Of a stretch of 64,000 nt of DNA, positions 22,856-63,831 are shown one piece after another. The stretch lies in contig CAZPYM010000001.1 in assembly GCA_964590105.1 (NCBI GenBank), positions 302,172 to 366,171 of the forward strand. Direction: 5' to 3'. How positions within the stretch are numbered: position 1 is the stretch's first letter; the number at the start of each line of letters is the position of its first letter. The notes beneath the pieces were generated by a model that made no database searches, had not been told where the DNA came from, and worked only from the letters and a program-made list of their open reading frames with translations. A program made the position numbers and the translations under genes. The DNA is from an uncultured Gammaproteobacteria bacterium (GTDB lineage: Bacteria; Patescibacteriota; Patescibacteriia; UBA11705; JABHMO01).

Positions 22856-23503
22856 CTAGTTTAACGCGCGTGCGCGCGGAGATTGTTTTCTTTGACTTTC
22901 GTACAGCGACAATTCTTCGCCTCCAATAGAGGCCAGTACCGAGATGCGCGGAGTGAAATTAATCTCCACACCGCTGCGCACTAGTGCGATCACATTGTAC
23001 GCCTTGAAATATGAAAATTGCTCCACAGCGATGATGCAGTACCCATCCTCCTGCGCCTGAGGCCAGCTGATATCTTCCTCTGCTTCATCCAGCCTGATCT
23101 GAAAACTGACCAAGACGGAATCGGCAAAATGCGTTTGTTCGATCGGTTCATTATTGGCGTAAAGAATGATCATCTCGCCGCCATCTTCGATGGCATGGTA
23201 AAGATTGACGCCGGTAATGGACGTCAGTCGATGCAGGGCTACGGGGAGTTCGCGTAGCTCCAGAAATGGTTGACCGACTTTTCTCGACTTGAATACTCTC
23301 GCCAGATCACGGATATTCGGAATGCTGGTCGCGCCTTCGGTCGGCAGAACAAAAATCACTTGCTGGCTGGATTCGGCGTCATTCAGACAAAAACACCACG
23401 AGTGCATCACTGCCTTAACCACCAGCCTGCTTGTCAAGAAAATCGGCCAAAAAGACTCATTGACCGGGATTACCAGATCCTTGCCATCTTTGTTTTGGAT
23501 CAT
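22856..23503 (-). CDS. hypothetical protein (215 aa) in a compositionally atypical island
   Basis: Strong RBS (aagggaggtgaaat-ATG); GC ~50% against a ~35% background; no recognisable motif. Confidence 0.5.
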   Translation of the reverse strand: MIQNKDGKDLVIPVNESFWPIFLTSRLVVKAVMHSWCFCLNDAESSQQVIFVLPTEGATSIPNIRDLARVFKSRKVGQPFLELRELPVALHRLTSITGVNLYHAIEDGGEMIILYANNEPIEQTHFADSVLVSFQIRLDEAEEDISWPQAQEDGYCIIAVEQFSYFKAYNVIALVRSGVEINFTPRISVLASIGGEELSLYESQRKQSPRARALN

Positions 23504-23627
23504 ATTTCACCTCCCTTTGTTTTGGGGTGAATTAATAATGAACAAGCTTATATATTCAGCATAGCTTTCAGACATCAGATAGTCAAGCAAAACATTCACA
23601 GTTTCGGCTAAACAGCTCCTATATTTT

Positions 23628-23669
23628 TTTAAAAGAAAAGAGCTGTATGTTAGATGCAACATACAGCTC
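23628..23669 (-). terminator. rho-independent terminator downstream of the high-GC 317-aa gene
   Basis: A perfect 12-bp inverted repeat gagctgtatgtt-agatgc-aacatacagctc, followed on the minus strand by ttttctttt. Confidence 0.6.
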
Positions 23670-23734
23670 AATTTGCTTGGAATTTTTTGGGACTGAAACG
23701 TCCCTGGTGGGAGAGAAAGGAAGGAGGGGTGAGG

Positions 23735-24685
23735 CTAGCGGTCGCGGCGGGCGTTCTTGCCGTCGCGCTTCCAGCCCTTCTTGTCGCGCTGACCGATCCG
23801 CTTCTGAAGCTCGTCAACCTTGGCCTGGCCGAGATACTCAGCCAGGGTGCAGGTCGCGGCCTGGCGCTTCTGCTGTCCCTCGCGCTCCTTCTCAGCGAGA
23901 TACTCGGCCTCCTTCGGACCGAAGAACATCTTGTAGCGCAGGAGCCCGAGGTAGGCGTCGCTCGAGTTGAGCGAGACCTCGTACTCCTCGCCACGCGCGT
24001 TGCGGTTCTTGCTCGCGATCGACGTGAAGATGTCGACATCCGACTCGAGCACATACGCCCCGTACGATCCGAACTTGCCGAAACGCCGCGTGACGAGGCG
24101 AAGCCCCTTCACGTGGGGCACGCCGCCGTTGCCGTTCGTGCTCTGCTCGCGGCAGAATCCACGCTCCCACTCGAAGAATTCCGAGGGGTTGGAGGGCGCC
24201 GTATCCTTCAGGCCGGCGGCATACGCCACCTCGAAGGCCTCGGTCCGCTCGGAGCACCGCTCGATGTTCTCGATGGGCGCCGTACCGACGATCGGCTTCA
24301 TCAGCCCGAAACCGGCCCGAACGAGCTTCGGCATCGGGGTCCAGACGGATCCCTCACCGAACCGGTCGGTGACCAGCTTGGCGTACTGTTCCTTCTTCTC
24401 CGCATCCTTGTCCGCCGCCGCCTGATAGGCGACAATCGCATCACAGAGCTCCATCTTCTGGAAGCGCCCTCCGGCGACCCGCAGAGACTCCATGACCTTC
24501 TGCGCCGCTTCCGGCGTCAGGAGCAGATAGTCGTCGTCCACTCGGATAACGACCGCCTTGGAAATCGGCCTCACCTCGAGACCGCCCTCGCGCTCCAGGA
24601 CGGTGATGTCCTTGGGAACACCGGGAGTGGGGATCGAGCCGCCAAACTCCGCCACGAATGCCTTGAAACCAACGATCGTTTTCAT
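23735..24685 (-). CDS. hypothetical protein (317 aa) with foreign codon usage (GC ~65%, GC3 near 100%) and a C-terminal Lys/Arg-rich tail
   Basis: RBS ggagga 6 nt upstream of the ATG at 24685 (MKTIVGFKAFVAEFGG...). Amino-acid composition is balanced, and the protein ends ...QRDKKGWKRDGKNARRDR. The long plus-strand ORF over the same region is L/R/A-rich antisense junk. Confidence 0.6.
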   Translation of the reverse strand: MKTIVGFKAFVAEFGGSIPTPGVPKDITVLEREGGLEVRPISKAVVIRVDDDYLLLTPEAAQKVMESLRVAGGRFQKMELCDAIVAYQAAADKDAEKKEQYAKLVTDRFGEGSVWTPMPKLVRAGFGLMKPIVGTAPIENIERCSERTEAFEVAYAAGLKDTAPSNPSEFFEWERGFCREQSTNGNGGVPHVKGLRLVTRRFGKFGSYGAYVLESDVDIFTSIASKNRNARGEEYEVSLNSSDAYLGLLRYKMFFGPKEAEYLAEKEREGQQKRQAATCTLAEYLGQAKVDELQKRIGQRDKKGWKRDGKNARRDR

Positions 24686-25041
24686 CACTTTCCTCCAGTT
24701 AGTTGTAAAAGATACTTCCTCATCCAACAGCACAATTCTTATCTCAAGTCCTTGTTGCGATAAAAACTGTGCTGTCAAATAATAACAAATTTTACACGAT
24801 ATATAACAGGGAAGTATAGCATACATCAAATATTTTGTCAAGAGGTGTTATTTGAAGTTTTATTATTACACTAAAATTAGACAAACAAACAAGTTACACC
24901 TAAGTAACATTTCAGAGGTTATTAACTGTTTACAATACGCATAATTTGAGCTATAATTTTGGGGAAGCTGAAAAAGAAGCACTTTGTTATTTCCGCTTTA
25001 TTGTTTGTGATTTGTTATTTGTAATTTATTATTATCCATTT

Positions 25042-28383: not shown

Positions 28384-31300
28384 TTATTTTACCACTGCCA
28401 TCCAGTCAGCTTCGGTTGAAGGAAACTTGCCGTTCGCAGTTTTGAAATCCTTGACTGCTTGCAATCTTTCAACCGATGTTTTGGCCTTGCTGGCCGCTGT
28501 ACTGCCGTATGAGATGAAAGTTACAACATTCCAGCCCTCTGCATCCGGAGATTGGCCGGCGAGAGCGATATAATCATTTACAGCTGTGATTTCATTTTTC
28601 AGGTCTCTGTCAGCACTCACTGGCAAAGCTGGCACTGCGTTATCTTTTGGCGCTTCTACAACTGGCGCTGCTGGTACTGTCTCAACTGGCGCTGGTGCCG
28701 GAGCTGTCATAGAAACACCTGCATAAGCAATTCCGCGCAATACAGACCACATGAAACCGGTATTTGGCATTTGCTTGAATGATTTAGAGAAGGTTGCTAA
28801 AGCAGTCTTTTCCTTAGCCAATTCACGCGCTTCAGGTCGCAGATAGTAGGCGACAGAGTGGATAAACTTTTCTTCAGCCGGTTTGCTAAAATCAACCAAT
28901 CGGCCGAACACCTTTACAAAAGCTTTCAAAGCTTCTGCCTCGCGTCCGATTATTCTAGCGGGAGTTGTTCCTTCAGCCATCTTGGCCACGCTCTCCCAAT
29001 CAGAATCAGTACTGGGGATATGATTGTAAACAGCTTTATAATCTTCAAGCAATCCCACTCTTTCACGTTCCGCCATTTTCTTGACTTTATCAGTTGTTCC
29101 ATAAGTCAGGAAATCTACAACTCGCCATTCATTGGCCGTAGCCGGACTCTTGCCGACAAGTTTAGCATAATCTTTTACGCCTTGAATTTCCTTCTTAAGT
29201 TCTCTTGCCGCCGGTTTTACCGGCACCACATTTGTCAGGGTAACGACTTCTGAAGCAACTTCCTTGGAAACTTCTTTAACTTCTGTTTTGACAACCGTAG
29301 TTATTTCTTCCACTGTTGTCGTGACTGCTTCATCCGTGGTCGTTGTGGTAGTTGTTGTCGGTTCTATTATCGTCGTTGTAGTGGTTGTCGCGGCCGCTCC
29401 GCCGGTGGTATCAACCGCGCGCCGTGTTGTTGTAGCGGATGCCGCGACTAGAGGCGGATGAGTGATTGAAACCGAGGTCAAGTGAGTAATCTTTCCCATG
29501 CAATAATTTTCAGTCGTGTTGCAGGTTTGATTATCAAGCGGCATAAACGAGTCAGTCGTATCATCGTAATATGACAATGTGAGCAAAGATTCATCGGTTA
29601 CGCCCGCGCTTGTTAATTCAGCGGCCGTATAGTGGAGAATAATCTCAGCGCCTTCTCCGTTCAATTGGTTCACATCCTCACCTCCGGCTTTGGCTGTAAT
29701 TTCAACTTCAGTCCCGACTAAAGGCAACGTTGTATCGAGCGCCGGCAAGTCCACCTGCTGAAAGGTCAACGTGCCGCTAGAATTCTGCCCACCGATAACT
29801 CCGGTGCCGGCGCTAATTTCAAGACCGGTGTTATTTGCGTCGTTTACTACTACACCGCTCGTTGGAACAATCGTTCTGCTATCAACGCTTTTTATATCTG
29901 TCGGATCAGATGTCAACGTGATGTCCTTGTTGCTGAGCGAACTACCACTAACCGCGACAGTGGCCGATCGCGTTGTTTCAGCGTGCAATGGGCCATCCGC
30001 AATCACTGACCATGTGCCATCTGTTACTGATAACTGGTAGCTACCATCTTGCTGAATTGATCCCTTGGCTTTTGCTCCAGTAGTCGCCTCGGTGGCGTAG
30101 ACAAATCCGCCAAGATTCATAGGCGTTGATCCGTCAGATTCGTAAATCGTGCCTGAAATTGAATTGCCTTTTTCAACCAAATCATTGTCAATCTGAATAT
30201 CTTCGTCTGTGGTATTGCCATCAAAATCAAAATTTACATTTCCCGTAACCTCCAAGTTTGAATATTTTGCCGGCGTGCCGTAATCCTTGTGTTCGGCTTT
30301 AATGCTGTATGTGCCTTCTTTGACACTCATTGAATAGTCGCCGCTGGCGTCCGTGGTTGTTTGCTTTACCAATCCCGTTGTTTCATTAATAAGCAAAACC
30401 GCGGCATTGGCTATGGGATTATTGGAATTGTCAAGAACTGTGCCTAAAACCGTGCGCATTGTCTGCGCCGAAAGATCAACAGTGGTACTTTGATTTGAAG
30501 TTGACAAATCAATTGTTGAAGACGGCGAAAAATCTCCCATGCCGTCAACAAACACCATCAATCTATATGTTCCGGCAGGAACGCTGATAGTCTGGCTCTG
30601 GCTCAAATCGGGAAGCGGCATGCCTCGGCGCACAGCTCCACGGCTGTTGGTCGTGGCTGACCCGGCTATTTCCTTTACTTCTATAAACCCGCGCATATTT
30701 GAAGTTCCGCCGGTAAAAGCGACTGTCAATGTTTTCAAACTTGCCAAATCATAACTGATATTCACGGTTTGATTGCCTCCGTTTACAGTAACATTTTGTC
30801 CTAGTTCTCCGTAATCAGGCGACCACATTGACACTCTGTATGTACCGTTGCCGGCTTTGATTGAATAAGAACCGTCATTGGCCGTTGATTCATTGCGATG
30901 GTATCCTCCGCTCGGCCAGTCATTAACCGTATCCCAGGCTTCTACCATTATCGGAACACTACCCTGTGCTGTACCGCCGATTGAAACGGAGCCGGAAATG
31001 GTGTAGCAGGTGGAAGATGTCGGCTGAAGATTTTCAGTCGGCTTATTCGCGCCCGAAACTGTAATAGCCTTGGTAATTGTGCCACAAGTATCAGTTCCCG
31101 ATGGCATTTGCGCCGTCACTGTCCAAGTGCCGTCGCCAACATTCAGCATATAGTCGCCGTCCGAATCCGACATTGTTTGCGCAGACTGGTGCGTCGTTGT
31201 TTCGTTTGCCATTACGCTGGTGTAGTTGAGAGGATTGCCGCTCAAATCCATTACTTTTCCTGAAATCATGTAGTCGGCTTTATACATTTTGATTAAGAAC

Positions 31301-34300
31301 GGAGCGGCGGTAGTAACATAATCGCCTTCAAGATTAACATCGCAAGTGGTATTGCCGTCGGAAACCCCAACCGTATTATCCTTTACTGCTACCGACCTAA
31401 ACGGAGCCTCACCGATTCCGGGTTTATGAGCTCCGATTTCATAATTTCCATTGGCCGCGACTTTGAGAACAAAACTGCCGTCCGCGAGGGATTGCGTATG
31501 AGAGCCCATGCCACCGAAACCCATTGGCTGGCTGGCCCAAATTTCAACATTTTGCATTACATTATACACTTTCGCGCCAGAAGAAAAAGCTTGATTCATG
31601 CCGTTTACCAATTGAACTGTCGCGCCGCTGATTGACAATATTTTATCATTTTTTGTGTTCGTGCCGTCAGTCACAACTATTGAATCATTGGCATTAAATC
31701 CCGTGCCACTCGCCAAAGTCAGGCTGGTCGCGCTCGAAGTGTAATTCGCGCCGAGCGTAGTTTCCTTTGACACAACGCATCCGAGTATTTCTTTACTAGC
31801 GCTATTGATGTTAAAACTTAATTCAGTAATTGTTGCATTCGTATCATTGCGCTTAATAATTGGAGTTCCGCCAATACCGCTGACTTCAACCTGAACATTT
31901 GTCGGCGGCATCCAATCAGGCATCGGAGGCGGTCCCATCATCGGCCCCTTTGGCATAGCCGGCCCAATGCCAACCATATATATGCCGTTGGAAGGGAAGT
32001 ATAGAGTGGAACTGTTATTAGTGACTGCGCCGGTCAAAGTAGTGGTATTTACCGCGAACGAATTAGGCCCGCCCGCGAAAATATCAAGATCTTCTCCGTC
32101 AGCGCTGAATGTCCCGGACACCTTGACTGTCAATGATGCTGAATTGGACGCTGAAAATTTAGCGAAGGTTAGCGCTCTCGTCAAAGTCTTTGTTCCCGAA
32201 TTCCAGTTTTCGCCCGAACCGGGCACACAAATTGGTTCCGGATTCATCTGTCCGCTGTATTTATTTGCGCCAAGAGTAACCGTCGGCTCGCTAAAAATAT
32301 TATAACAGCCATCCGGCAAATTTGACCAAGTCTGCGTTCCCGTGCCATTGGCAATGTTAACTGTCGCGTCCAAAGGACCGGTCATGGGAGATCCCATCAT
32401 CAATTGAAAAGTGCCGGTGCCGCTTTCAGCCGCGATTGTCGCCGTGATATTATTTGCTCCGGCCGCGTTGATAAAGAAAGGCATTGAAGTCATGCTGGAC
32501 ACGTTCGTGCCGTCCGCTTTGTACGCTTTCATGTCAACGGTGTAGCCATTGGAATTGAAATCCTGAACTTTTGTCGGATTGACGATGTTTTTCACTTCAA
32601 AATGAAAGTAATCAGGATCGCCGGTTTGTCCGCCGTTCGTATTCAGCCACAGAGTCATTGTCTGACCTGAAACCGTCACGCCGTCGCTCGCCGCGCCGCC
32701 CTTTGTCGCGGCGCCCGCGCCGTCGTCAGCAACTCCCGAAGTCTTGAATTTGACTATTGACGGACCGCTCATATTCAGATCATTTTTATTGGGATTATAC
32801 GGATCCGGAATCGCCGAAACAATGTTAACGCCTTTTGGAAATGTCAATTTAATATATGCTCCGTCGTCAAGCGCATTGGCTGATTTGCCCGATGGCGGAA
32901 TAGGGAAGTCAATCATGTATGTGGTCGTAGCGCCGGCCATCATATTCATGGGCATGGCTCCGACTCCTCCCATCATCATGGCGTCTTTTTCTGAAAAACC
33001 TCCAAATCCTGTAGGCGCGCCCGTCATCATGGCGCCGCCCATGGCCGAAGGACCGGAAAGTCCGCCGCAAGCGGGTCCGATCATACCGCCTGTTTTCGCC
33101 TCATCGCGCAAAACTCCCTTGGCGGAATTAGCCGTAGCGTCAATTGGATTATTCGACAGATCCATAACATTTGAAACAGTAATAATAAATTGATCTGTTT
33201 CTTTTGTCGCACCGGTGAAGGATAGACCCTTAATTTTGACGGTGTTTGTTTCATAATCATAATCAAACGACACGCCGGCCGCTCCAAGATTTTCAGTACT
33301 ACCGGTGCCGTCGGCGCCAAAAGTCAATGCGTAGTTGCCCGACTTCAGTACGCTCCCTGTCCAAAGCGAAGCATTGGACGAGGCGTCACTTTGCTTCAAC
33401 GCGCTCATTGGTCTTGAGAATGTCACCGCGCACTGGTATCCGTCGCAATTCGCGACTTCAACTCTGGGCTTGGTTGTGTCAAATGTAGACGTCATGGTAA
33501 ACGAGCGCGTCAAAGTGGTTGCTCCGCTCGGATTACCATACAAGTCTTTTATTCCACTTGTGCCGCCAAGAGTAATAGTCAAGGTATATTTCATACCCGG
33601 CGTCAAGCCGGTTGTCGGGATTACCTTGATACTCTGGCTCATTGAATCATATTTTACTACGGCCGGAATTGTTGACGTTCCGGTTTTCAATGTAACGGTG
33701 GCCGTGTTAACATTACCCGGTTCCAGCGATTCATTGAAACCAATATCCACGAAGCCGAAATCCAATGGCACTCCCGTGGCATTATTGTCCGGCCAACTGC
33801 CATTAATGCCGGGAGCAGTTGAATCAGTAACGTCCGCGACTGTAAAATTGACCATAAATTGATTGGCTCCGGGATCGTTTGGATTGCCAAGCGTTACACC
33901 CGAAGACGCTCGGATTCCCGCCTTTACCCTTATTTCATACTCGCCGGCCATTAAATTTGAAGACAAATTCATTATGGCGAAAAGCTTATCGTTCGAGGTT
34001 GTCACTGAACTTATATAAGTACTGGTAACATCTGTAAAAGAATTACCGCTTTTTTGAAATAACTTGAATGTGCCCGTGTTAACGCTACTTGAATCAAGCG
34101 ATTCGCTGAATTCAAACATCATTTTTGACAAATTTTTTGATACACTCCACGCGCCCGACGACGGCTGCGCGCCTTTCACAAAGAAAGGAGAATAGTCTCC
34201 GCCGCTCCATTGGCCTGTAGTCGTGTTAAAATTATCCGCCATTGTCATATAATCAGCATTATCGGTCATAGATCCAAAATTACCGGCATCATAATATGCG

Positions 34301-37056
34301 GCATCTTCCGTAAAGCCAAATCCGCTGGAGCCGCTAAAATTCATATCGGTTGACTGCGTAGTGAAAGTGAACGAATGTCCTCCTCCCGGCCTGCCGCCCT
34401 GAACTGAATTGCCGGCCATATCTATAACAGCAGGAAGGATTTCCACAATATATTGCGTGTTCTTAACCAAAGGCTCCACCATATCAATTACCGCCACCGG
34501 GGTACTGACAGATGCACCAGGCGCGTAGAAAGTGGCGCCGCGATTGCTGGCTCCGAGACCGGTGTCAATTGTTACGGCGTAATTAGTAACGGGTTCAACT
34601 TGTCCCGTAAAGTTATTCATTTTTTTCAACAATATATTTGACGTAGTCAGTTTTCCCACGTTCATTGGTTTATTAAATCTAATAAATATAGGTGCTCTGT
34701 CAATCACTATGTCGATCGGCGCGCTGTTCATGCCGTCCGATGGAGTAGTTTCTATAACCATAGGCGCGCTGGAATCTCCGCCATGAGCCCCTACGCCGCT
34801 ATCTAGACAAAACTGCCAGCCGGTTGACTGCGGATTATTACTGCTGACGCCAACTCCCCAAATTGTACTTTCATGATAACCTCCCGCATTCGCGCTCAAA
34901 TTCCAAACGCCGTCAAACACGCCGTTTAGCGTGAATGTTCCGGCTTGATCGCTGACAATGGAGGTAACGGCGCTAATGCCAGTACCTTCAATTCTAACGG
35001 TTGCGCCGTCAATGCCAGTCACGCAATCGCTTTGGTATACGCGGCCGGAAATTTTTCTAGCTCCGCTGGTCGTTGAGACATTAATATGATATGGCATGGC
35101 TTGGGCCAGCACTTCCGTATTTGCCACGGGATCCGCGGCCGAATATCCTTCTTCGCTCATGCCGTCAACCGCCTTAATATAATAATCTATTCCTGCCGCG
35201 GTTACCGCTGACGCAGGTATTGTGAATATTGTACTTGAACCTGAAGAACTTCCGGAAACACAGCTTCCCGGCCAACCGGCTGTGCCGGCCTTGTAGCATA
35301 GTGTAGTAGTAATCTGTTGCGAAGTGCTTTCAACATCATATATTTCAGCCAGAAGTTTAATTTCAGTTGAAACCACAGCCGTGGAAATCGGGCTGTGCAT
35401 AACATGAGGTGGAGTGTTTAAGTGCGTTTCGCCGCCCAGTTGAAAAACCTCTACGCCGCTAGTTGATTTTTGAGGATCTGACAAAGTGCGCGAAACAAAA
35501 TCATACATATTATCATTGCTATTATAACCATTTCCGATTGCCACGTCTGAAGTAACCATAGTCGCACTTGTTGATGAATATACCGCTTTTCGTTCAATAC
35601 TGCCGTTTGCCAAGGGCGCAGGGTTGAACGGACTGGTTTGATAAACCCTGACCCCATGTCCGACGCCCACGATATCCCTTACCGTATTATTTTCATCAAT
35701 TAAAAATATTGTATTACCGGAATCCAAATCTACTCCTGTAAACGCAGCGTCAGCACTCAGGCCTTGCCCATCAACGCTCTGGTCAAAACTATTAGCGTCA
35801 TTAGCCAATAAATAATATCCGCCTTGCGCCATAGTAGTCCCGCCTGCGATCGTAGCCAAAACAGTGTATGTATTGTCAACTCCTTCTATACCAGGCAGAT
35901 CTGTCAAGACGGCAACTTTCCAGCCGGCGATGGATTGCGGGCTCAATCCAATATTGTAAAGCTCAATGAATTCATCCGTTGCAGCGGCGCCGGCCAATTG
36001 AATTTCAGAAATCAGAATGCTGGTGTTCGGCCACATCCAAAACAAAGGAGCCGGATCGCTATACGGCATGCCGTTGGCAACGCTTTTTGGCGCAATCGAG
36101 GGATTGGTGCTTATTTGCAGGCTATCGGTCATAGTCATTGAAATCCTGGCGCCGGCATGCGCGACCACGGAAACTCTGCTAGGATCACTGCCATCGCGAG
36201 TCGCCCTGATTATTGACTGATTATCGTTTGCACCTGTCATTAAAGTATACCGAGCGCAACTTCCGGGGGTGACTTCTTCGTCGCATTCCACCGAATCCGC
36301 GGTTACTGGCATATTAAAATCAATTATTAAATCTCTATATGACCCATAATACAAGCCATCCACTCTAGGCGGCGACATATAAGTGTCTCCGTCTCCGCCG
36401 CCGCCGGCGCTATTTATCGTATCCGTGCTAACCTGCGTGATCGTCGGGGAAGTGCCGCTGGTAACAACCGTGCCGCTCGCGCCGCCTAAGAAAGTAAATC
36501 GAAATGATTTTCCGGAGGGCGGAGTGTCGTGCATTTTCATGTGAAGAAAATAATTGCCGCTACCCGCTGAATATGAAGTTGGCAATGTGTCATCAACAAC
36601 GTCAAGAGTAACATCATAAGTGCCGTCGCCATTGTTTGTCCATGAAGGCTTTGTTTCCCAAACAAGAACGCTGTCTCCGGAGCCGGGATCCATCCAGCCA
36701 TTACCATTACCGTCTTTATAAATGCATAGTCCCTGATCATCACTGCCGGCCGCCGCCGCTTCATTAAACGGCGCCAATACCAAAGCCGGATCAGGAGTGC
36801 CATAGAGACCGTCAAAACGAACTTTAATTGATTTTAGCTGCTCGCCGGCAGTACCGGTAATCTTCAACGCGGCAACACTGCTCATGAAACCGCCATATGC
36901 ATTCATGTTTGGCGGAATCATAAACTCCGAAGTTACTGTTACACCAGCTTGAGCCGGAAATAGGGGAGTGAGCACGCCGGCCAATCCCATGGCCCAGACT
37001 ATGGTGGTCATGGCGATAAAGCCAGTAAATAATTTATTTTTTGCGATTTTCATCAT
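28384..37056 (-). CDS. giant secreted surface protein (2890 aa) with Ig-like/carboxypeptidase-regulatory-like beta domains, Met/Gly/Pro-rich low-complexity segments, a poly-Thr linker and two C-terminal ~75-aa tandem repeats
   Basis: A single uninterrupted ORF. Signal peptide MMKIAKNKLFTGFIAMTTIVWAMGLAGVL. Many G/T/S/N-rich beta-type repeats (e.g. GRVYQSDCVTGIDGATVRIEGTG). Low-complexity segments GPACGGLSGPSAMGGAMMTGAPTGFGG...MMMGGVGAMPMNMMAGA and MPKGPMMGPPPMPDWMPP, and a TTTTTTIIEPTTTTTTTT linker. The C-terminal repeats are (V/N)KDYAKLVGKSPATANEWRVVDFLTYG and VNDYIALAGQSPDAEGWNVVTFISYG. Confidence 0.85.
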   Translation of the reverse strand: MMKIAKNKLFTGFIAMTTIVWAMGLAGVLTPLFPAQAGVTVTSEFMIPPNMNAYGGFMSSVAALKITGTAGEQLKSIKVRFDGLYGTPDPALVLAPFNEAAAAGSDDQGLCIYKDGNGNGWMDPGSGDSVLVWETKPSWTNNGDGTYDVTLDVVDDTLPTSYSAGSGNYFLHMKMHDTPPSGKSFRFTFLGGASGTVVTSGTSPTITQVSTDTINSAGGGGDGDTYMSPPRVDGLYYGSYRDLIIDFNMPVTADSVECDEEVTPGSCARYTLMTGANDNQSIIRATRDGSDPSRVSVVAHAGARISMTMTDSLQISTNPSIAPKSVANGMPYSDPAPLFWMWPNTSILISEIQLAGAAATDEFIELYNIGLSPQSIAGWKVAVLTDLPGIEGVDNTYTVLATIAGGTTMAQGGYYLLANDANSFDQSVDGQGLSADAAFTGVDLDSGNTIFLIDENNTVRDIVGVGHGVRVYQTSPFNPAPLANGSIERKAVYSSTSATMVTSDVAIGNGYNSNDNMYDFVSRTLSDPQKSTSGVEVFQLGGETHLNTPPHVMHSPISTAVVSTEIKLLAEIYDVESTSQQITTTLCYKAGTAGWPGSCVSGSSSGSSTIFTIPASAVTAAGIDYYIKAVDGMSEEGYSAADPVANTEVLAQAMPYHINVSTTSGARKISGRVYQSDCVTGIDGATVRIEGTGISAVTSIVSDQAGTFTLNGVFDGVWNLSANAGGYHESTIWGVGVSSNNPQSTGWQFCLDSGVGAHGGDSSAPMVIETTPSDGMNSAPIDIVIDRAPIFIRFNKPMNVGKLTTSNILLKKMNNFTGQVEPVTNYAVTIDTGLGASNRGATFYAPGASVSTPVAVIDMVEPLVKNTQYIVEILPAVIDMAGNSVQGGRPGGGHSFTFTTQSTDMNFSGSSGFGFTEDAAYYDAGNFGSMTDNADYMTMADNFNTTTGQWSGGDYSPFFVKGAQPSSGAWSVSKNLSKMMFEFSESLDSSSVNTGTFKLFQKSGNSFTDVTSTYISSVTTSNDKLFAIMNLSSNLMAGEYEIRVKAGIRASSGVTLGNPNDPGANQFMVNFTVADVTDSTAPGINGSWPDNNATGVPLDFGFVDIGFNESLEPGNVNTATVTLKTGTSTIPAVVKYDSMSQSIKVIPTTGLTPGMKYTLTITLGGTSGIKDLYGNPSGATTLTRSFTMTSTFDTTKPRVEVANCDGYQCAVTFSRPMSALKQSDASSNASLWTGSVLKSGNYALTFGADGTGSTENLGAAGVSFDYDYETNTVKIKGLSFTGATKETDQFIITVSNVMDLSNNPIDATANSAKGVLRDEAKTGGMIGPACGGLSGPSAMGGAMMTGAPTGFGGFSEKDAMMMGGVGAMPMNMMAGATTTYMIDFPIPPSGKSANALDDGAYIKLTFPKGVNIVSAIPDPYNPNKNDLNMSGPSIVKFKTSGVADDGAGAATKGGAASDGVTVSGQTMTLWLNTNGGQTGDPDYFHFEVKNIVNPTKVQDFNSNGYTVDMKAYKADGTNVSSMTSMPFFINAAGANNITATIAAESGTGTFQLMMGSPMTGPLDATVNIANGTGTQTWSNLPDGCYNIFSEPTVTLGANKYSGQMNPEPICVPGSGENWNSGTKTLTRALTFAKFSASNSASLTVKVSGTFSADGEDLDIFAGGPNSFAVNTTTLTGAVTNNSSTLYFPSNGIYMVGIGPAMPKGPMMGPPPMPDWMPPTNVQVEVSGIGGTPIIKRNDTNATITELSFNINSASKEILGCVVSKETTLGANYTSSATSLTLASGTGFNANDSIVVTDGTNTKNDKILSISGATVQLVNGMNQAFSSGAKVYNVMQNVEIWASQPMGFGGMGSHTQSLADGSFVLKVAANGNYEIGAHKPGIGEAPFRSVAVKDNTVGVSDGNTTCDVNLEGDYVTTAAPFLIKMYKADYMISGKVMDLSGNPLNYTSVMANETTTHQSAQTMSDSDGDYMLNVGDGTWTVTAQMPSGTDTCGTITKAITVSGANKPTENLQPTSSTCYTISGSVSIGGTAQGSVPIMVEAWDTVNDWPSGGYHRNESTANDGSYSIKAGNGTYRVSMWSPDYGELGQNVTVNGGNQTVNISYDLASLKTLTVAFTGGTSNMRGFIEVKEIAGSATTNSRGAVRRGMPLPDLSQSQTISVPAGTYRLMVFVDGMGDFSPSSTIDLSTSNQSTTVDLSAQTMRTVLGTVLDNSNNPIANAAVLLINETTGLVKQTTTDASGDYSMSVKEGTYSIKAEHKDYGTPAKYSNLEVTGNVNFDFDGNTTDEDIQIDNDLVEKGNSISGTIYESDGSTPMNLGGFVYATEATTGAKAKGSIQQDGSYQLSVTDGTWSVIADGPLHAETTRSATVAVSGSSLSNKDITLTSDPTDIKSVDSRTIVPTSGVVVNDANNTGLEISAGTGVIGGQNSSGTLTFQQVDLPALDTTLPLVGTEVEITAKAGGEDVNQLNGEGAEIILHYTAAELTSAGVTDESLLTLSYYDDTTDSFMPLDNQTCNTTENYCMGKITHLTSVSITHPPLVAASATTTRRAVDTTGGAAATTTTTTIIEPTTTTTTTTDEAVTTTVEEITTVVKTEVKEVSKEVASEVVTLTNVVPVKPAARELKKEIQGVKDYAKLVGKSPATANEWRVVDFLTYGTTDKVKKMAERERVGLLEDYKAVYNHIPSTDSDWESVAKMAEGTTPARIIGREAEALKAFVKVFGRLVDFSKPAEEKFIHSVAYYLRPEARELAKEKTALATFSKSFKQMPNTGFMWSVLRGIAYAGVSMTAPAPAPVETVPAAPVVEAPKDNAVPALPVSADRDLKNEITAVNDYIALAGQSPDAEGWNVVTFISYGSTAASKAKTSVERLQAVKDFKTANGKFPSTEADWMAVVK

Positions 37057-58914: not shown

Positions 58915-59193
58915 ATGACGGGATTAAGCACACAAGGAAGATTTTGCGATGGAGTTGATGAGGACGGTGTGATCTGCAACGCGCTCATGGTAGAAAAATC
59001 TGTCTTCTACCACTGCCCTGCCTGTGGCCACATTCACATGCTGCCCGAAGCCGAGGTACAGCAAAAATTGGAAGAAGCGCAAAAAAGAAATAATCGTCAC
59101 GCCTACATGCGGGTCGGCGCTGCTAATCCGGCAATTGACAACGACGACGTTTTTTCGACCCCCCATAGCCGAAGTCGAGGCCGCATCCGTTAA
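58915..59193 (+). CDS. small zinc-ribbon protein, function unknown
   Basis: CDGVDEDGVIC...HCPACGH Cys/His pairs; strong SD sequence; 92 aa. Confidence 0.45.
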   Translation: MTGLSTQGRFCDGVDEDGVICNALMVEKSVFYHCPACGHIHMLPEAEVQQKLEEAQKRNNRHAYMRVGAANPAIDNDDVFSTPHSRSRGRIR

Positions 59194-59345: not shown

Positions 59346-59843
59346 TCACATAAATGACTTCACCGCTTTCAAAGCCTCCGGAAACAGCGGCACAAACACA
59401 CTGCCAATCGTAAGCAAAGTTTTGCCGACAACAGAAACTGACATCTGCCACATCAGCCAGTCATTCAAAGGATATTTCAAAATAAAATTTAGAATTATAG
59501 CCAAAATAAAAATTCCCTCTACAAAACCAAGAATAAATCCGAGCAAACGATCAAAAGTAGAAATAAATGGCAGAATTGTAATAATACGAAAAATTTTACC
59601 AAAAACCCAAAACAACAGGCTGACGATTTTTATTGCCAAGCCAAATATTATTACAAAAGCGATAATATTGGAAAAGTTTGAACCGCCAAACCAGGAAGCT
59701 ACGATTGGAAAAAATCTGCTGGCAATGATAGCCGCCACAATAATCCCGACGATTGATCCGAGCGATTCCAGAAAACCTTTTTTTAATCCAAGCAATGCTA
59801 GAATTAGTATTATACCAAGCAAAATGTAATCAAGTATCATCAT
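59346..59843 (-). CDS. cvpA: CvpA-family membrane protein
   Basis: MMILDYILLGIILILALLGLKKGFLESLGSIVGIIVAAIIASRF matches the CvpA N-terminal signature; four TM helices. Confidence 0.65.
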   Translation of the reverse strand: MMILDYILLGIILILALLGLKKGFLESLGSIVGIIVAAIIASRFFPIVASWFGGSNFSNIIAFVIIFGLAIKIVSLLFWVFGKIFRIITILPFISTFDRLLGFILGFVEGIFILAIILNFILKYPLNDWLMWQMSVSVVGKTLLTIGSVFVPLFPEALKAVKSFM

Positions 59844-59881: not shown

Positions 59882-59911
59882 CAAAAAAACCCTGGATTAG
59901 CGAATCCAGGA
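59882..59911 (-). terminator. rho-independent terminator after the high-GC beta-CA-like gene
   Basis: On the minus strand: cctggattcgctaatccaggg followed by tttttttgtttttt. Confidence 0.55.
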
Positions 59912-59920
59912 TTTGTATCT

Positions 59921-60343
59921 TTACGCTGAGTCGGGCAACGGTCCGACACGCCAGCTGCTACCGTGCGATTGGCGGGCGAACAGCACCGCCACGCTCACGC
60001 ACGGAAACTCACGGGCAATAATTCTTTTGGCCGCATCCAAATCGCGCCGATAGGCGTCAAGTTCTGCTTGCGGGCTCGGGAATTTTGCACTACCGCCATA
60101 AGCGCCGCAGTCCTCATGTCCGATCAAGATGATTTCCATCACTCCGTGCGCCTCGACGGCGAGCTTCATGTCCTTCAACAGACCGGATCGACGCAAAACT
60201 TCAACCACTGCTTTCTGGGCGCCGGCTACGGCCAGCAGATCGTATGAACCGGTGAGGCCCTGTTCCGCGGCAAAATTCACAATCGCTTGCTGAATTCGGA
60301 AATCCATACAAGTCAGAATCAAAGCGTTGCATTGATGTCCCAT
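59921..60343 (-). CDS. minimal beta-carbonic-anhydrase-like protein (140 aa), the GC-rich paralog
   Basis: CMDFR (C-x-D-x-R) and HEDCGAYGG (H-x-x-C-G) lie ~64 aa apart, as in beta-CA zinc-ligand motifs. GC is ~55-57%, against ~33% in the adjacent paralog. Confidence 0.55.
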   Translation of the reverse strand: MGHQCNALILTCMDFRIQQAIVNFAAEQGLTGSYDLLAVAGAQKAVVEVLRRSGLLKDMKLAVEAHGVMEIILIGHEDCGAYGGSAKFPSPQAELDAYRRDLDAAKRIIAREFPCVSVAVLFARQSHGSSWRVGPLPDSA

Positions 60344-60475
60344 CTCGTCCCTCCTCTTTTCAGGGCCAGCAATAACTGCCTGATGTTACAGACTACCAAA
60401 CCAATAATAAAATGTCAATGCTTATAAAAAAAGACCTGCTTTAGCCGGCCTTTTTATTAAATATTATACAATTTC

Positions 60476-60886
60476 TTAAACTTCAATTATTTCAATCTTA
60501 TTTTCAGAATCAAAAGTTAAAACCATTTTCCTTACATTCAAGTTAGAAAATTTTTGGTAGATCAATTCTTCCGCTTTGTTTAAGTCCTCAATATACTTTG
60601 CTTTTTCTTCGTCCCATGAAGCAAAGGTCACGCTACCGCCGTAAGCGCCGCAATCCTGATGAGCGATCAAAATTACCGTATGGCTTTTGTGAAGACGGAC
60701 TGAAATATCAAGCTGTTTTAAAACAGCTGCTCTGGTATCCTCGTCAATAATTGACTTTTGGACTCCGGCCATTGAAACCAAGTCAAAATCATTTTGCAAT
60801 CCTTTGTCTTTTGCCCATTGATAAATAGCCTCATGAAAACGAAAATCAATACAGGTCATTAAAAAATTATTACATTCATGTGACAT
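60476..60886 (-). CDS. minimal beta-carbonic-anhydrase-like protein (136 aa), the AT-rich paralog
   Basis: CIDFR and HQDCGAYGGS motifs; ~40% identical to the 59921..60343 product. Confidence 0.55.
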   Translation of the reverse strand: MSHECNNFLMTCIDFRFHEAIYQWAKDKGLQNDFDLVSMAGVQKSIIDEDTRAAVLKQLDISVRLHKSHTVILIAHQDCGAYGGSVTFASWDEEKAKYIEDLNKAEELIYQKFSNLNVRKMVLTFDSENKIEIIEV

Positions 60887-60981
60887 ACTGGTTTAACTGA
60901 TTAATTTATAAAATAGCAAAGAGGAAAAAGTGACAATTGAAATTTGCAGTTTCAATGTCACGTCTCCCCTCTCACTGTTTT

Positions 60982-61422
60982 CTATTTTTTTTGACTAAAA
61001 CCCCTCTGCTCAATCCTTCGCTGATGTTTTCTGCCGACTTTGACCCGCGCCAATTCTTTTTCAATCATGGCGGAAAGCCTGGCGAATTCTACAGCATCAG
61101 TTGCTTTGGTTTCTTTTAATTCTTTTGCCCGCTGAAGCGCAGCCTCGGCTCTTGCCAAATCAATTTCCTCTGAACGTTCTGCCTTGTCAGCCAAGATCAC
61201 CACTTTTGTTGAGAGCACTCCCAGAAATCCGCCGGCCACGGCCATCAGAACTTTTTTCTCACCAGTTCTAACCACCATTTCACCGGCAGCCAAAACTGAA
61301 ATCAATGGAATATGATTTGGCAAAATAGTAATCTCGCCCTCCCTGGTCGGGACAGTTATAGAATCCACTTCTTCCTTGAACACTACACGTTCAGGCGTGG
61401 CAATTTTAAAATTTATTTTCAT
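60982..61422 (-). CDS. atpC: F0F1 ATP synthase subunit epsilon
   Basis: MKINFKIATPERVVFKEEVDSITVPTREGEITILPNHIPLIS; it directly follows atpD. Confidence 0.9.
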   Translation of the reverse strand: MKINFKIATPERVVFKEEVDSITVPTREGEITILPNHIPLISVLAAGEMVVRTGEKKVLMAVAGGFLGVLSTKVVILADKAERSEEIDLARAEAALQRAKELKETKATDAVEFARLSAMIEKELARVKVGRKHQRRIEQRGFSQKK

Positions 61423-61476: not shown

Positions 61477-62868
<1,392 letters not shown>

Positions 62869-62874
62869 TTAGAA

Positions 62875-63831
62875 TTATTTTCTCATTAATGCGGCCGCGC
62901 CGGAACTGATTTCAGCAATTTCCTGAGTAATACTCGCTTGCCGCGCGCGATTGTAGGACAAAGTTAAGTCGTCAATCATGTCCCCTGCCGCGTCGCTGGC
63001 ATTTTTCATTGCCACCATGCGCGCGCTGTGTTCAGAAGCTTCTGACTCCAGTACCGTCTGATAAATCTGCATTTCAATCAGCCGAGGAAGCATTTCCCGC
63101 AAAACAACCTTTGCCGAAGGCTCAAAAATATATTCATATTTATACTCGCCTTTGCGCAAATATTTTTCTTTTTTGTCATGAATAAATTCTTTGCGTGTAC
63201 TGACCCCCTCGCTCATTCCAACAACACCCAAATATTCGTCCGGTTCAGTTTGAATAGGCAAGAGTTGTTTGACTCGCGTCACTTGATTCATTGAAGTCAC
63301 AAAATCCGTAAATACTATAAAAACTTTGTCATATTTCCGCTGTGTAAAATCACTGATTACCATTTTTGAAAGCGCCGAGATATCTGTTATTGACAATGTT
63401 AAATCCTGTTTAACAAAATCAGCCACAATATTAAAATTCATCGCCCGCACAATATCACGAGACTTGGTGCCAAGAGAGATAATTTCAGTGGCTTTTACTG
63501 ATTTTTCGTATTTTTTTATTGAGGCAGCCGCCTTTTGCGCAATCTTCAAATTAAAACCTCCGCAAAGTCCGCGATTTGAACCGACCAGTATCAAACCGAC
63601 TGATTCCACTTGCTTTGGCTGGCGCAACAAAACATGCAAATCCGGATTAGTTTTTTCCGCCAAATTCAAAATCGTCGCCCAGGCCAAGTTGGCATAATCA
63701 CGAGTAGCCAAAACTGAGGCAACTGCTTTACGCATTTTTGCCGCCGCTACCATTTCCATCGCCTTGGTTATTTTTTTCGTATTGGAAATGGATTTCATCC
63801 TGCGTTTTAATTCTCTAGTTCCCGATGCCAT
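62875..63831 (-). CDS. atpG: F0F1 ATP synthase subunit gamma
   Basis: MASGTRELKRRMKSISNTKKITKAMEMVAAAKMRKA and the C-terminus ...ITQEIAEISSGAAAL. Confidence 0.92.
   Translation of the reverse strand: MASGTRELKRRMKSISNTKKITKAMEMVAAAKMRKAVASVLATRDYANLAWATILNLAEKTNPDLHVLLRQPKQVESVGLILVGSNRGLCGGFNLKIAQKAAASIKKYEKSVKATEIISLGTKSRDIVRAMNFNIVADFVKQDLTLSITDISALSKMVISDFTQRKYDKVFIVFTDFVTSMNQVTRVKQLLPIQTEPDEYLGVVGMSEGVSTRKEFIHDKKEKYLRKGEYKYEYIFEPSAKVVLREMLPRLIEMQIYQTVLESEASEHSARMVAMKNASDAAGDMIDDLTLSYNRARQASITQEIAEISSGAAALMRK

What the first reader, a model, noticed from the sequence alone, without database searches (positions are those of the whole stretch)
59921..60886. Tandem pair of minimal beta-carbonic-anhydrase-like genes with discordant GC content next to the ATP synthase operon
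Two adjacent minus-strand ORFs (140 and 136 aa) share ~40% identity. Both carry the beta-CA zinc-ligand signatures C-x-D-x-R (CMDFR/CIDFR) and H-x-D-C-G-A-Y-G-G, at the spacing seen in beta-CAs. They are unusually short for this fold. One copy is ~55-57% GC with its own AT-rich terminator, and the other is ~33% GC like the host. This suggests a xenolog acquired beside (or in the process of displacing) the native copy, immediately upstream of atpC-atpD-atpG. A CA-like pair coupled to the F-type ATPase operon in a minimal genome is not a standard arrangement.
Basis: partly seen in the sequence, partly recalled or inferred. Interest (0 to 1): 0.65.

Follow-up and report, generated by a model that had tools for sequence, protein, structure and literature searches.

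The report
Paired mini carbonic anhydrases after atp operon
Two small carbonic-anhydrase-like genes of a known family (Pfam PF20393) follow the ATP synthase operon of a candidate-phyla-radiation bacterium; the pairing and the operon link are conserved in relatives, and the GC-rich copy is an old, fast-evolving paralog whose odd composition recurs in other lineages rather than marking a recent foreign gene.

Summary
Two minus-strand genes, A (60476-60886, 136 aa, 35% GC) and B (59921-60343, 140 aa, 56% GC), are 40% identical. Both carry the Cys/Asp/Arg and His-x-x-Cys zinc-site motifs. Both pass the Pfam PF20393 (Pro_CA_2) cutoff and give confident AlphaFold models whose best PDB matches are beta-carbonic anhydrases. 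They are ordinary-sized members of a known family of about 1,100 cluster representatives, found mostly in Patescibacteria.

They lie downstream of atpC, not upstream. This linkage is common: 27 of 79 species-representative loci have the gene within 200 bp after atpC on the same strand, and 11 more within 2.5 kb.

The atpC-A-B-cvpA layout recurs in at least four related lineages. A copies form a 91%-supported clade. B copies share B-specific signatures and a conserved promoter layout. The closest B belongs to the closest relative. A recent xenolog is therefore not supported as stated.

The GC anomaly is genuine (GC3 z = +3.4) and recurrent. In 11 of 11 two-copy loci the divergent copy is GC-richer than its host, and in 10 of 11 its GC3 exceeds the host expectation. 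The cause is unexplained. Enzyme activity and any functional coupling to the ATPase are inferred, not shown.

The parts
62875..63831 (-). atpG (F1 gamma subunit)
   Evidence: 318-aa ORF. The identical gene in L001 carries Pfam ATP-synt.
61477..62841 (-). atpD (F1 beta subunit)
   Evidence: 454-aa ORF. Pfam ATP-synt_ab in L001. 93% identical to the L008 ortholog.
60982..61422 (-). atpC (F1 epsilon subunit), last canonical gene of the atp operon
   Evidence: Pfam ATP-synt_DE_N 86.3 bits and ATP-synt_DE 28.7 bits.
60919..60973 (-). Strong hairpin followed by a U-rich tract between atpC and A. It is terminator- or attenuator-like.
   Evidence: Folding 60880-60990(-) gives MFE -27.2 kcal/mol, z -3.3, with 1 of 200 shuffles folding as well. 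Coordinates are read from the dot-bracket string and are approximate.
60476..60886 (-). Copy A: the conserved, atpC-proximal Pro_CA_2 (minimal beta-CA-like) gene. 136 aa, GC 35%.
   Evidence: PF20393 63.4 bits against cutoff 30. Model pLDDT 96.2 with top PDB hit Cab 1G5C. Member of a 91%-bootstrap A clade. Relatives at 60-90% identity are numerous.
60426..60455 (-). Imperfect hairpin plus T-run after A (weak terminator-like site)
   Evidence: Read from the sequence. The consensus scan did not call it. An equivalent hairpin plus T-run lies at the same place in L008, L094 and L005.
60390..60418 (-). Promoter-like element for B: TTGACA, 17 nt, TAGTCT
   Evidence: Read from the sequence. The same TTGACA, 17 nt, TAnnnT layout is found upstream of B in L008, L094 and L005. 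The simple scan did not call it because the -10 hexamer matches only 3 of 6.
60350..60358 (-). Shine-Dalgarno sequence (AAGAGGAGG) of B
   Evidence: Read from the sequence. AGGAGG is conserved before B in L008 and L094.
59921..60343 (-). Copy B: the divergent, GC-rich Pro_CA_2 paralog. 140 aa, GC 56%, GC3 60%.
   Evidence: PF20393 51.6 bits and PF00484 31.7 bits, both above cutoff. Model pLDDT 94.9 with top PDB hits 6Y04 and 1G5C. GC3 is 0.593 against 0.446 expected from host codon usage, z +3.4. The only relative above 50% identity is the L008/P0134 lineage.
59887..59914 (-). Intrinsic-terminator-like hairpin plus T-run after B
   Evidence: 12-pair stem followed by TTTTGTTTTT.
59346..59843 (-). 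cvpA-like membrane protein gene. It is the conserved downstream neighbour that bounds the B slot.
   Evidence: Pfam Colicin_V 81.8 bits. It holds the same position in L005, L008, L094 and L095.

Best explanation
The two genes are old paralogs of the Pfam family PF20393 (Pro_CA_2). This family is a minimal branch of the beta-carbonic-anhydrase superfamily, about 120-165 residues long and mostly found in Patescibacteria (CPR). The host here is a Patescibacterium near Kuenenbacteria and Falkowbacteria.

Shown:
- Both proteins have the beta-CA core fold.
- Both keep the full zinc and catalytic set: Cys12, Asp14, Arg16, His76 and Cys79.
- Copy A is the conserved ortholog. In many Patescibacteria it directly follows atpC on the same strand, as a 3' appendage of the F1Fo ATP synthase operon.
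- Copy B sits in a conserved slot between A and cvpA. It has its own promoter-like element, strong ribosome-binding site and terminator.
- B evolves much faster than A.
- B is richer in GC and GC3 than its host, in this genome and in other lineages.

Inferred:
- Both are cytoplasmic zinc enzymes that interconvert CO2 and bicarbonate plus a proton. No signal peptide is evident by eye, but none was tested for.
- A is made with the ATP synthase. It would supply or buffer protons and bicarbonate for an ATPase that, in fermentative CPR cells, probably often runs as an ATP-driven proton pump. This would make a pH or proton-motive-force homeostasis module.
- B is a separately regulated isozyme.

The GC discordance is a recurrent property of the B paralog. 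It is not evidence of a recent foreign arrival in this genome, and its cause is unknown.
For: Family and fold:
- PF20393 hits above cutoff for both copies and for the B copies of L094, L005, L008, L044 and L091.
- AF2 pLDDT 94.9 and 96.2 with identical secondary-structure topology.
- All 38 top Foldseek PDB hits for B, and 23 of the top 25 for A, are beta-CAs. Cab 1G5C gives TMq 0.57-0.64.
- The profile aligns to the zinc motifs of 3LAS, 6JQC/D, 1YLK and 1G5C.
- C12, D14, R16, H76 and C79 are invariant in alignments of 18 and 30 sequences.

Operon linkage:
- 27 of 79 species-representative loci have the gene within 200 bp downstream of atpC on the same strand. Another 11 have it within 2.5 kb.
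- P0003, P0004 and P0005 are also next to atpC.

Old pair:
- atpC-A-B-cvpA is found in the window, L008 and L094/L095. L005 has a two-gene insert between A and B.
- The A clade has 91% bootstrap support, and A and B sets are separated in 98% of replicates.
- CMD[FY]R[IT]Q and a C-terminal Trp are shared by B copies of five lineages.
- The layout terminator, TTGACA, 17 nt, -10, AGGAGG is conserved upstream of B.
- The closest B (56%) is in the lineage closest by atpD (93%), atpG (78%) and cvpA (81%).

Recurrent GC excess:
- The divergent copy has GC above the host in 11 of 11 two-copy loci.
- Its GC3 exceeds the host-expected value in 10 of 11, for example L094 at 0.52 against 0.23, z +8.6. Conserved copies have z from -3.6 to +1.7.
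Against: - No enzymatic, zinc-binding or expression data exist for any PF20393 member that I could find.
- Similarity to solved beta-CAs is distant: Foldseek E about 1e-4 to 1e-5, 12-19% identity, rmsd 5-9 A. Copy A fails the PF00484 cutoff.
- I could not inspect model coordinates, so zinc-site geometry is inferred from alignment only.
- In this window a strong hairpin with a U-tract follows atpC, so co-transcription of A with the atp operon is not assured here.
- B monophyly is not resolved by the short alignment (3-5% bootstrap). B-B identities between lineages (34-44%, apart from the window-L008 pair) are no higher than A-B identities (34-40%).
- Each B is an orphan outside its own lineage.
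- In sister strain L093, DNA homology to the window ends exactly at A's stop codon.
- The last three points are also what repeated replacement of B would produce.
Confidence: 0.6

Rival explanations
1. Recurrent xenologous replacement. The B slot is ancestral, but its occupant has been swapped repeatedly by recombination with alleles from GC-richer donors that are not yet sampled. Each lineage therefore carries a compositionally foreign, highly divergent B. This is the softened form of the first reader's idea.
For: - B is elevated in GC1, GC2 and GC3 together (window GC12 0.54 against 0.41; L094 0.49 against 0.40). Selection on codon choice alone would not do this.
- Each B has no relative above 37-56% identity outside its own lineage, while A has many at 60-90%.
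- In sister strain L093 (A 88% identical at DNA level), homology stops at A's stop codon and an SNase-like gene follows. The A/B junction is therefore structurally unstable. L005 also has an insert there.
Against: - The closest B belongs to the closest species.
- B-specific signatures are shared across five lineages.
- The AT-rich promoter and terminator architecture flanking B is conserved.
- No candidate donor clade appears among about 1,161 family representatives. B does not group with the Desulfobacterota, Myxococcota or other GC-rich sequences.
- The direction of the bias is the same in 11 of 11 loci.
- No mobile-element genes were seen next to the pair.
Confidence: 0.22
2. Single recent horizontal acquisition in this genome.
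For: - B is 56% GC against 41% for the window and 35% for A, with GC3 z +3.4.
- B has its own promoter-like element and terminator.
- B is one of only three strongly GC3-discordant ORFs among the 51 in the window.
Against: - Syntenic B genes with shared signatures occur in L008, L094 and L005.
- The L008 B is 56% identical, in line with A at 60% for the same species pair.
- The same anomaly occurs in other lineages.
- No relative closer than 52-56% exists among 15 billion proteins, so there is no identifiable donor.
Confidence: 0.05
3. Vertically inherited B whose GC-rich composition is actively maintained by a gene-specific process. Candidates are GC-biased gene conversion at a recombination-prone junction, or selection for host-rare (GC-ending) codons to throttle or condition translation.
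For: - The excess is recurrent and always in the same direction across lineages whose host GC3 ranges from 0.28 to 0.57.
- L094 B uses CTC, CTG, GTC, ATC and GCC, codons that its host almost never uses.
- The junction is structurally variable.
Against: - Rare-codon selection does not explain the raised GC1 and GC2.
- No consistent mRNA-structure signal: z -0.2 for the window, -2.3 for L094.
- There are no polymorphism data to test biased conversion. The four assemblies differ by at most one base.
Confidence: 0.3
4. The proteins are not carbonic anhydrases in function. They could hydrolyse another small linear molecule, as the beta-CA-fold COS and CS2 hydrolases do. Or they could be zinc-binding accessory or assembly factors of the CPR ATP synthase.
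For: - The family has invariant residues beyond the canonical set: D35, H66 and Y82 with the GGS of the AYGGS motif.
- The relationship to characterised beta-CAs is distant.
- The operon linkage with the ATP synthase is tight.
- No family member has been characterised.
Against: - The complete zinc-ligand set and Asp-Arg dyad are invariant. This includes family members in Desulfobacterota, Myxococcota and others that have no atp linkage, which argues for an autonomous enzyme.
- All structural neighbours are bona fide CAs.
Confidence: 0.15

Closest known systems
Pfam PF20393 (Pro_CA_2, 'Putative carbonic anhydrase')
   Same: Both window proteins score above the family's gathering cutoff over nearly the whole model. 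Their length, motifs and taxonomic range match the family.
   Different: Nothing places them outside the family. B is a fast-evolving, compositionally odd subgroup. I found no experimentally characterised member in the searchable literature.
Cab-type minimal beta-class carbonic anhydrases (M. thermoautotrophicum Cab, PDB 1G5C; also 3LAS, 1YLK/Rv1284, 6JQC/6JQD)
   Same: - Same core fold (TMq 0.57-0.64).
- Same Cys-x-Asp-x-Arg and His-x-Asp-Cys-Gly zinc and dyad motifs at comparable spacing.
   Different: - About 30 residues shorter (136-140 against 164-172).
- Only 12-19% identical.
- A does not reach the PF00484 cutoff.
- Extra invariant residues: D35, H66 and the AYGGS motif.
- Oligomeric state and activity are untested.
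Accessory genes of bacterial atp operons (for example atpI)
   Same: A small non-subunit gene is conserved in the same transcriptional orientation at one end of the atp operon across many genomes.
   Different: - It lies at the 3' end, after atpC, rather than at the 5' end.
- It is a soluble enzyme-like protein rather than a membrane chaperone.
- The linkage is seen only in Patescibacteria among the loci sampled here.
- The comparison with atpI rests on general knowledge and was not tested.
Carbonic anhydrase paired with proton ATPases in acid-secreting animal cells (cytosolic CA II with the V-ATPase)
   Same: This is the proposed logic only: CO2 hydration supplies protons to an ATP-driven proton pump.
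   Different: It is a physiological analogy from general knowledge. The proteins are unrelated (alpha-CA, V-type ATPase), and nothing here tests it.

Membership tests
Pfam PF20393 Pro_CA_2 | Whole-protein HMM score at or above the curated gathering cutoff (30 bits) | tested here: met
   B scores 51.6 bits and A scores 63.4 bits, covering model positions 4-117 and 6-113 of 125.
Beta-class carbonic anhydrase (PF00484 Pro_CA) | HMM score at or above the gathering cutoff (25.7 bits) | tested here: inconclusive
   B scores 31.7 bits and passes. A scores 19.1 bits and fails. NCBIfam gives no significant hit.
Beta-class carbonic anhydrase | Zinc ligands Cys, His and Cys in the C-x-D-x-R and H-x-x-C motifs | tested here: met
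   C12, H76 and C79 are invariant in 18- and 30-sequence alignments. The profile aligns them to TCMDSR and HHTDCGA of 3LAS and to 6JQC/D. This rests on alignment only. Metal binding was not tested.
Beta-class carbonic anhydrase | Catalytic Asp-Arg dyad next to the first Cys | tested here: met
   D14 and R16 are invariant.
Beta-class carbonic anhydrase | Alpha/beta core fold with a parallel sheet, as in solved beta-CAs | tested here: met
Beta-class carbonic anhydrase | Obligate dimer with active sites at the interface | not testable with these tools
   Only single-chain prediction was available, and model coordinates could not be inspected.
Beta-class carbonic anhydrase | Catalysis of reversible CO2 hydration | not testable with these tools
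   This needs an enzyme assay or genetic complementation.
Recently acquired xenolog (horizontal transfer) | Composition and codon usage discordant with the host | tested here: met
   B has GC 0.56 against 0.41 for the window. Its GC3 is 0.593 against 0.446 expected, z +3.4, third of 51 ORFs.
Recently acquired xenolog (horizontal transfer) | Absent from the same position in close relatives | tested here: not met
   A second Pro_CA_2 gene sits between A and cvpA in L008, L094/L095 and L005. Sister strain L093 is cut off before this position and is uninformative.
Recently acquired xenolog (horizontal transfer) | Phylogenetic placement with a foreign donor clade | tested here: not met
   The nearest relative of B is the B of the closest species (L008/P0134; 68% bootstrap). 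There is no grouping with sequences from GC-rich phyla. Deep nodes are unresolved.
atp operon member | Same strand, short gap to atpC, conserved across genomes | tested here: met
   For A, 27 of 79 species-representative loci have a gap of 200 bp or less, often 3-30 bp. In the window the gap is 95 bp.
atp operon member | Co-transcription with the atp genes in this genome | tested here: inconclusive
   A strong hairpin plus U-tract lies between atpC and A (z -3.3). No transcript data are available.

The most novel reading that the evidence does not exclude
In Patescibacteria a minimal beta-CA has become a working accessory of the F1Fo ATPase, handling protons and bicarbonate for a pump that runs in reverse in these fermentative, host-dependent cells. 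Its second, separately transcribed paralog occupies a hot spot where a locus-specific process keeps the gene GC-rich and fast-evolving across lineages, against the genome-wide AT pressure. That process could be recurrent allele replacement or GC-biased conversion.
Probability: 0.25. Interest if true: 0.55.

Novelty: new member of a known kind. Interest (0 to 1): 0.38.

Why it matters
Taken alone, the pair is ordinary: two members of an existing Pfam family. Two by-products may be useful.

First, the tight and widespread placement of this uncharacterised minimal CA directly after atpC gives a concrete, testable clue to how CPR bacteria use their ATP synthase. These bacteria lack respiratory chains. 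I found no description of the linkage in the searchable literature.

Second, the same gene slot holds a GC-rich, rapidly diverging paralog in several AT-rich lineages. This is a clean natural case for separating horizontal replacement, biased gene conversion and codon-level selection in reduced genomes. It also warns that a single-gene GC anomaly is not enough to call a recent transfer.

Tried and rejected
- **Structured RNA or tRNA under the GC-rich patch:** no Rfam or ARAGORN hit anywhere in the window.
- **mRNA structure as the reason for high GC:** z -0.2 for the window's B, -2.3 for L094's B, +0.1 for A. The signal is not consistent.
- **Overlapping antisense gene inside B (59963-60247, +):** no Pfam hit. 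The open antisense frame is the one expected when TTA, CTA and TCA codons are avoided. It is not conserved in L005's B, where the longest stop-free run is 34 codons in that frame and 49 in any frame.
- **Assembly chimera:** rejected. The locus is 99.98-100% identical over 2.6-6.4 kb in four independent assemblies.
- **Donor among GC-rich phyla that carry the family** (Desulfobacterota, Myxococcota, Zixibacteria and others): B does not group with them.
- **Recovering the sister strain's full locus:** a metagenome scan with the L093 SNase-like fragment found nothing.
- **Closer relatives of B copies:** none for the window's B and none for L094's B.
- **Literature:** searches for PF20393, Pro_CA_2, CA with Patescibacteria, CPR or Saccharibacteria, and CA with the atp operon returned nothing relevant. 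The Pro_CA_2 term matched only unrelated 'ProcA2' lanthipeptide papers.
- **First bootstrap attempts:** one timed out and one was corrupted by NaN distances. Only one search is used.

Full report
**Observation.** B is 59921-60343 (minus strand, 140 aa) and A is 60476-60886 (minus strand, 136 aa). They are 40% identical over 118 ungapped residues, E 9e-38. They carry TCMDFR / TCIDFR and HEDCGAYGG / HQDCGAYGG.

B is 56.0% GC with GC3 60%. A is 35.3% GC with GC3 34%. The window as a whole is 41.0% GC. After correcting for amino-acid content and host codon usage, B's GC3 is 0.593 against 0.446 expected (z +3.4). That ranks it third of 51 ORFs in the window. The GC-rich patch covers the B coding region and about 50 nt of its leader, and GC falls to 0.12-0.30 on both sides. 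The locus is 99.98-100% identical over 2.6-6.4 kb in four independent assemblies from ENA, Logan and JGI, so it is not a chimera.

Two details need correcting. The host is about 41% GC rather than 33%. And because everything is on the minus strand, the pair lies downstream of atpG-atpD-atpC.

**What the proteins are.** Both pass the curated cutoff of Pfam PF20393, Pro_CA_2 'Putative carbonic anhydrase' (51.6 and 63.4 bits against 30). B also passes PF00484, while A does not (31.7 and 19.1 bits against 25.7).

AlphaFold models are confident (pLDDT 94.9 and 96.2, pTM 0.89) and share one secondary-structure topology. Foldseek against the PDB returns almost only beta-class carbonic anhydrases. The minimal Cab enzyme (1G5C) is at or near the top, with TMq 0.57-0.64 and E about 1e-4 to 3e-5. 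A family profile aligns TCMDFR and HEDCGA onto the zinc-binding motifs of the small beta-CAs 3LAS, 6JQC/D and 1YLK. C12, D14, R16, H76 and C79 are invariant across the family alignments, as are D35, G41, H66, G80, A81 and Y82.

The beta-CA-like call is therefore right, but the family is already defined. The short length is the family norm: the model has 125 positions and homologs are mostly 119-165 aa. An exhaustive HMMER search finds about 1,161 cluster representatives at E <= 1e-3. Named hits are mostly Patescibacteria, including Kuenen-, Falkow-, Pace-, Doudna-, Moran-, Wildermuth- and Saccharibacteria. There are also branches in Desulfobacterota, Myxococcota, Zixibacteria and Anaerolineae. 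I found no paper on the family.

**Link to the ATP synthase operon.** I fetched 80 species-representative loci, and a family ORF was called in 79. In 27 of those the gene lies within 200 bp downstream of atpC on the same strand, often only 3-30 bp away. In 11 more it lies within 2.5 kb. In 34 loci with enough flank there is no atpC nearby, and these include all the loci whose records name a non-CPR phylum. Further metagenomic relatives show the same placement.

The arrangement is therefore standard for a large part of the Patescibacteria. It is not an oddity of this genome. I found no description of it in the searchable literature. In the window itself, a strong hairpin with a U-tract separates atpC from A (z -3.3). 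Co-transcription here is plausible but not shown.

**Is B a xenolog?** The layout atpC-A-B-cvpA recurs in L008, in L094/L095 and, with a two-gene insert, in the Kuenenbacteria locus L005/L015. These lineages are 84-93% identical to the window in atpD.

- A copies form a clade with 91% bootstrap support. A split separates the A set from the B set in 98% of replicates.
- B copies from five lineages share CMD[FY]R[IT]Q and a C-terminal Trp, which A lacks.
- The region upstream of B has the same architecture in four lineages: hairpin plus T-run, TTGACA, 17 nt, a -10-like TAnnnT, then AGGAGG.
- The most similar B (56%) is in L008. L008 is also the closest lineage by atpD (93%), atpG (78%) and cvpA (81%).

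These results point to an old paralog in a conserved slot. They do not fit a gene that recently landed beside the native copy.

**The GC anomaly is recurrent.** In all 11 two-copy loci examined, the divergent copy has higher GC than its host. In 10 of 11 its GC3 exceeds the host-expected value, with z from +1.2 to +8.6. The conserved copy has z from -3.6 to +1.7. The most extreme case is L094. Its host has GC3 near 0.28, its B copy has GC3 0.52, and B uses CTC, CTG, GTC, ATC and GCC codons that the host almost never uses. First and second codon positions are raised as well.

B copies also diverge far faster than A, at 34-56% identity against 60-70% between the same lineages. Each B is an orphan outside its own lineage. 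In sister strain L093, where A is 88% identical at DNA level, homology to the window ends exactly at A's stop codon and an SNase-like gene follows.

I could not determine the cause. mRNA structure, an antisense gene and an embedded RNA were checked and give no support. The remaining candidates are these:

- a maintained gene-specific bias, from biased gene conversion at an unstable junction or from selection on codons;
- repeated replacement of the slot's occupant by GC-richer alleles.

**Mechanism.** It is shown that the proteins have the beta-CA fold, the full catalytic residue set, a conserved operon position for A, and an independent promoter, ribosome-binding site and terminator for B. 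It is inferred that both are cytoplasmic zinc enzymes interconverting CO2 and bicarbonate plus a proton. It is also inferred that A is made together with the F1Fo complex and buffers or supplies protons and bicarbonate for it. In fermentative CPR cells without a respiratory chain, this ATPase is generally thought to run often as an ATP-driven proton pump (general knowledge, not tested here). B would then be a separately regulated isozyme. My confidence differs by claim:

| Claim | Confidence |
|---|---|
| Family and fold | about 0.9 |
| Old paralog pair rather than a recent xenolog | about 0.75 |
| CA activity | about 0.6 |
| Functional coupling to the ATPase | about 0.35 |

**Verdict.** The genes are new members of a known family, in an arrangement that is typical of their phylum. 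The residual interest lies in two points: the undescribed CA-ATP synthase linkage in CPR, and the unexplained GC excess of the second paralog across lineages.

Noticed in passing
window 22856-24841: A second GC-rich patch (GC 0.50-0.61 against 0.41). It holds two minus-strand ORFs, 22856-23503 (215 aa) and 23735-24841 (up to 368 aa). Neither has a Pfam or PHROGs hit. The long plus-strand ORF 23654-24763 looks like an antisense artefact. These two ORFs (22856-23503 and the plus-strand 23654-24763 that stood in for this region) are the only ones in the window whose GC3 excess matches that of B.
   Followed up: partly
L093:753-1164 compared with window 60343-60476: In a sister strain (A 90% identical in protein, 88% in DNA), similarity to the window stops exactly at A's stop codon and an SNase-like gene follows. 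L005 also carries an SNase gene plus a hypothetical gene between A and B. The A/B junction is an insertion-deletion hot spot.
   Followed up: partly
L091:2610-3404, P0136, L094:4936-5418: Some B-type copies carry long acidic C-terminal extensions (255-264 aa in total, or 160 aa in L094) after the CA domain.
   Followed up: no
L042:8475-9077: The second copy in this locus has lost the C-x-D-x-R motif (it reads CVDGW) while keeping HWDCGAYGGS. It may be an inactivated or repurposed paralog.
   Followed up: no
window 58915-59193 (+): A small 92-aa ORF with a CPxCG-type zinc-ribbon-like motif sits in a locally GC-rich stretch of about 0.49-0.52. It gives a weak, sub-threshold HVO_2753-like hit. 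An ORF of similar size lies at the same position in L008, and the identical ORF is present in L002.
   Followed up: no
window 28384-37056 (-): A giant 2,890-aa protein with CarboxypepD_reg, Big_5 and Lamin-tail domains. It is probably a surface or adhesion protein of the kind common in CPR genomes. GC is 0.48, above the window mean.
   Followed up: no
window 1-64000: No tRNA, tmRNA or Rfam family match was found anywhere in 64 kb.
   Followed up: yes
L011, L012, L013, L014, L017 and other genome contigs records: Several loci have CPR-type synteny and low GC, but their record titles read 'uncultured Gammaproteobacteria' or 'Bdellovibrionales' (binchicken and SRP co-assemblies). These are probably mislabelled Patescibacteria bins.
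   Followed up: no
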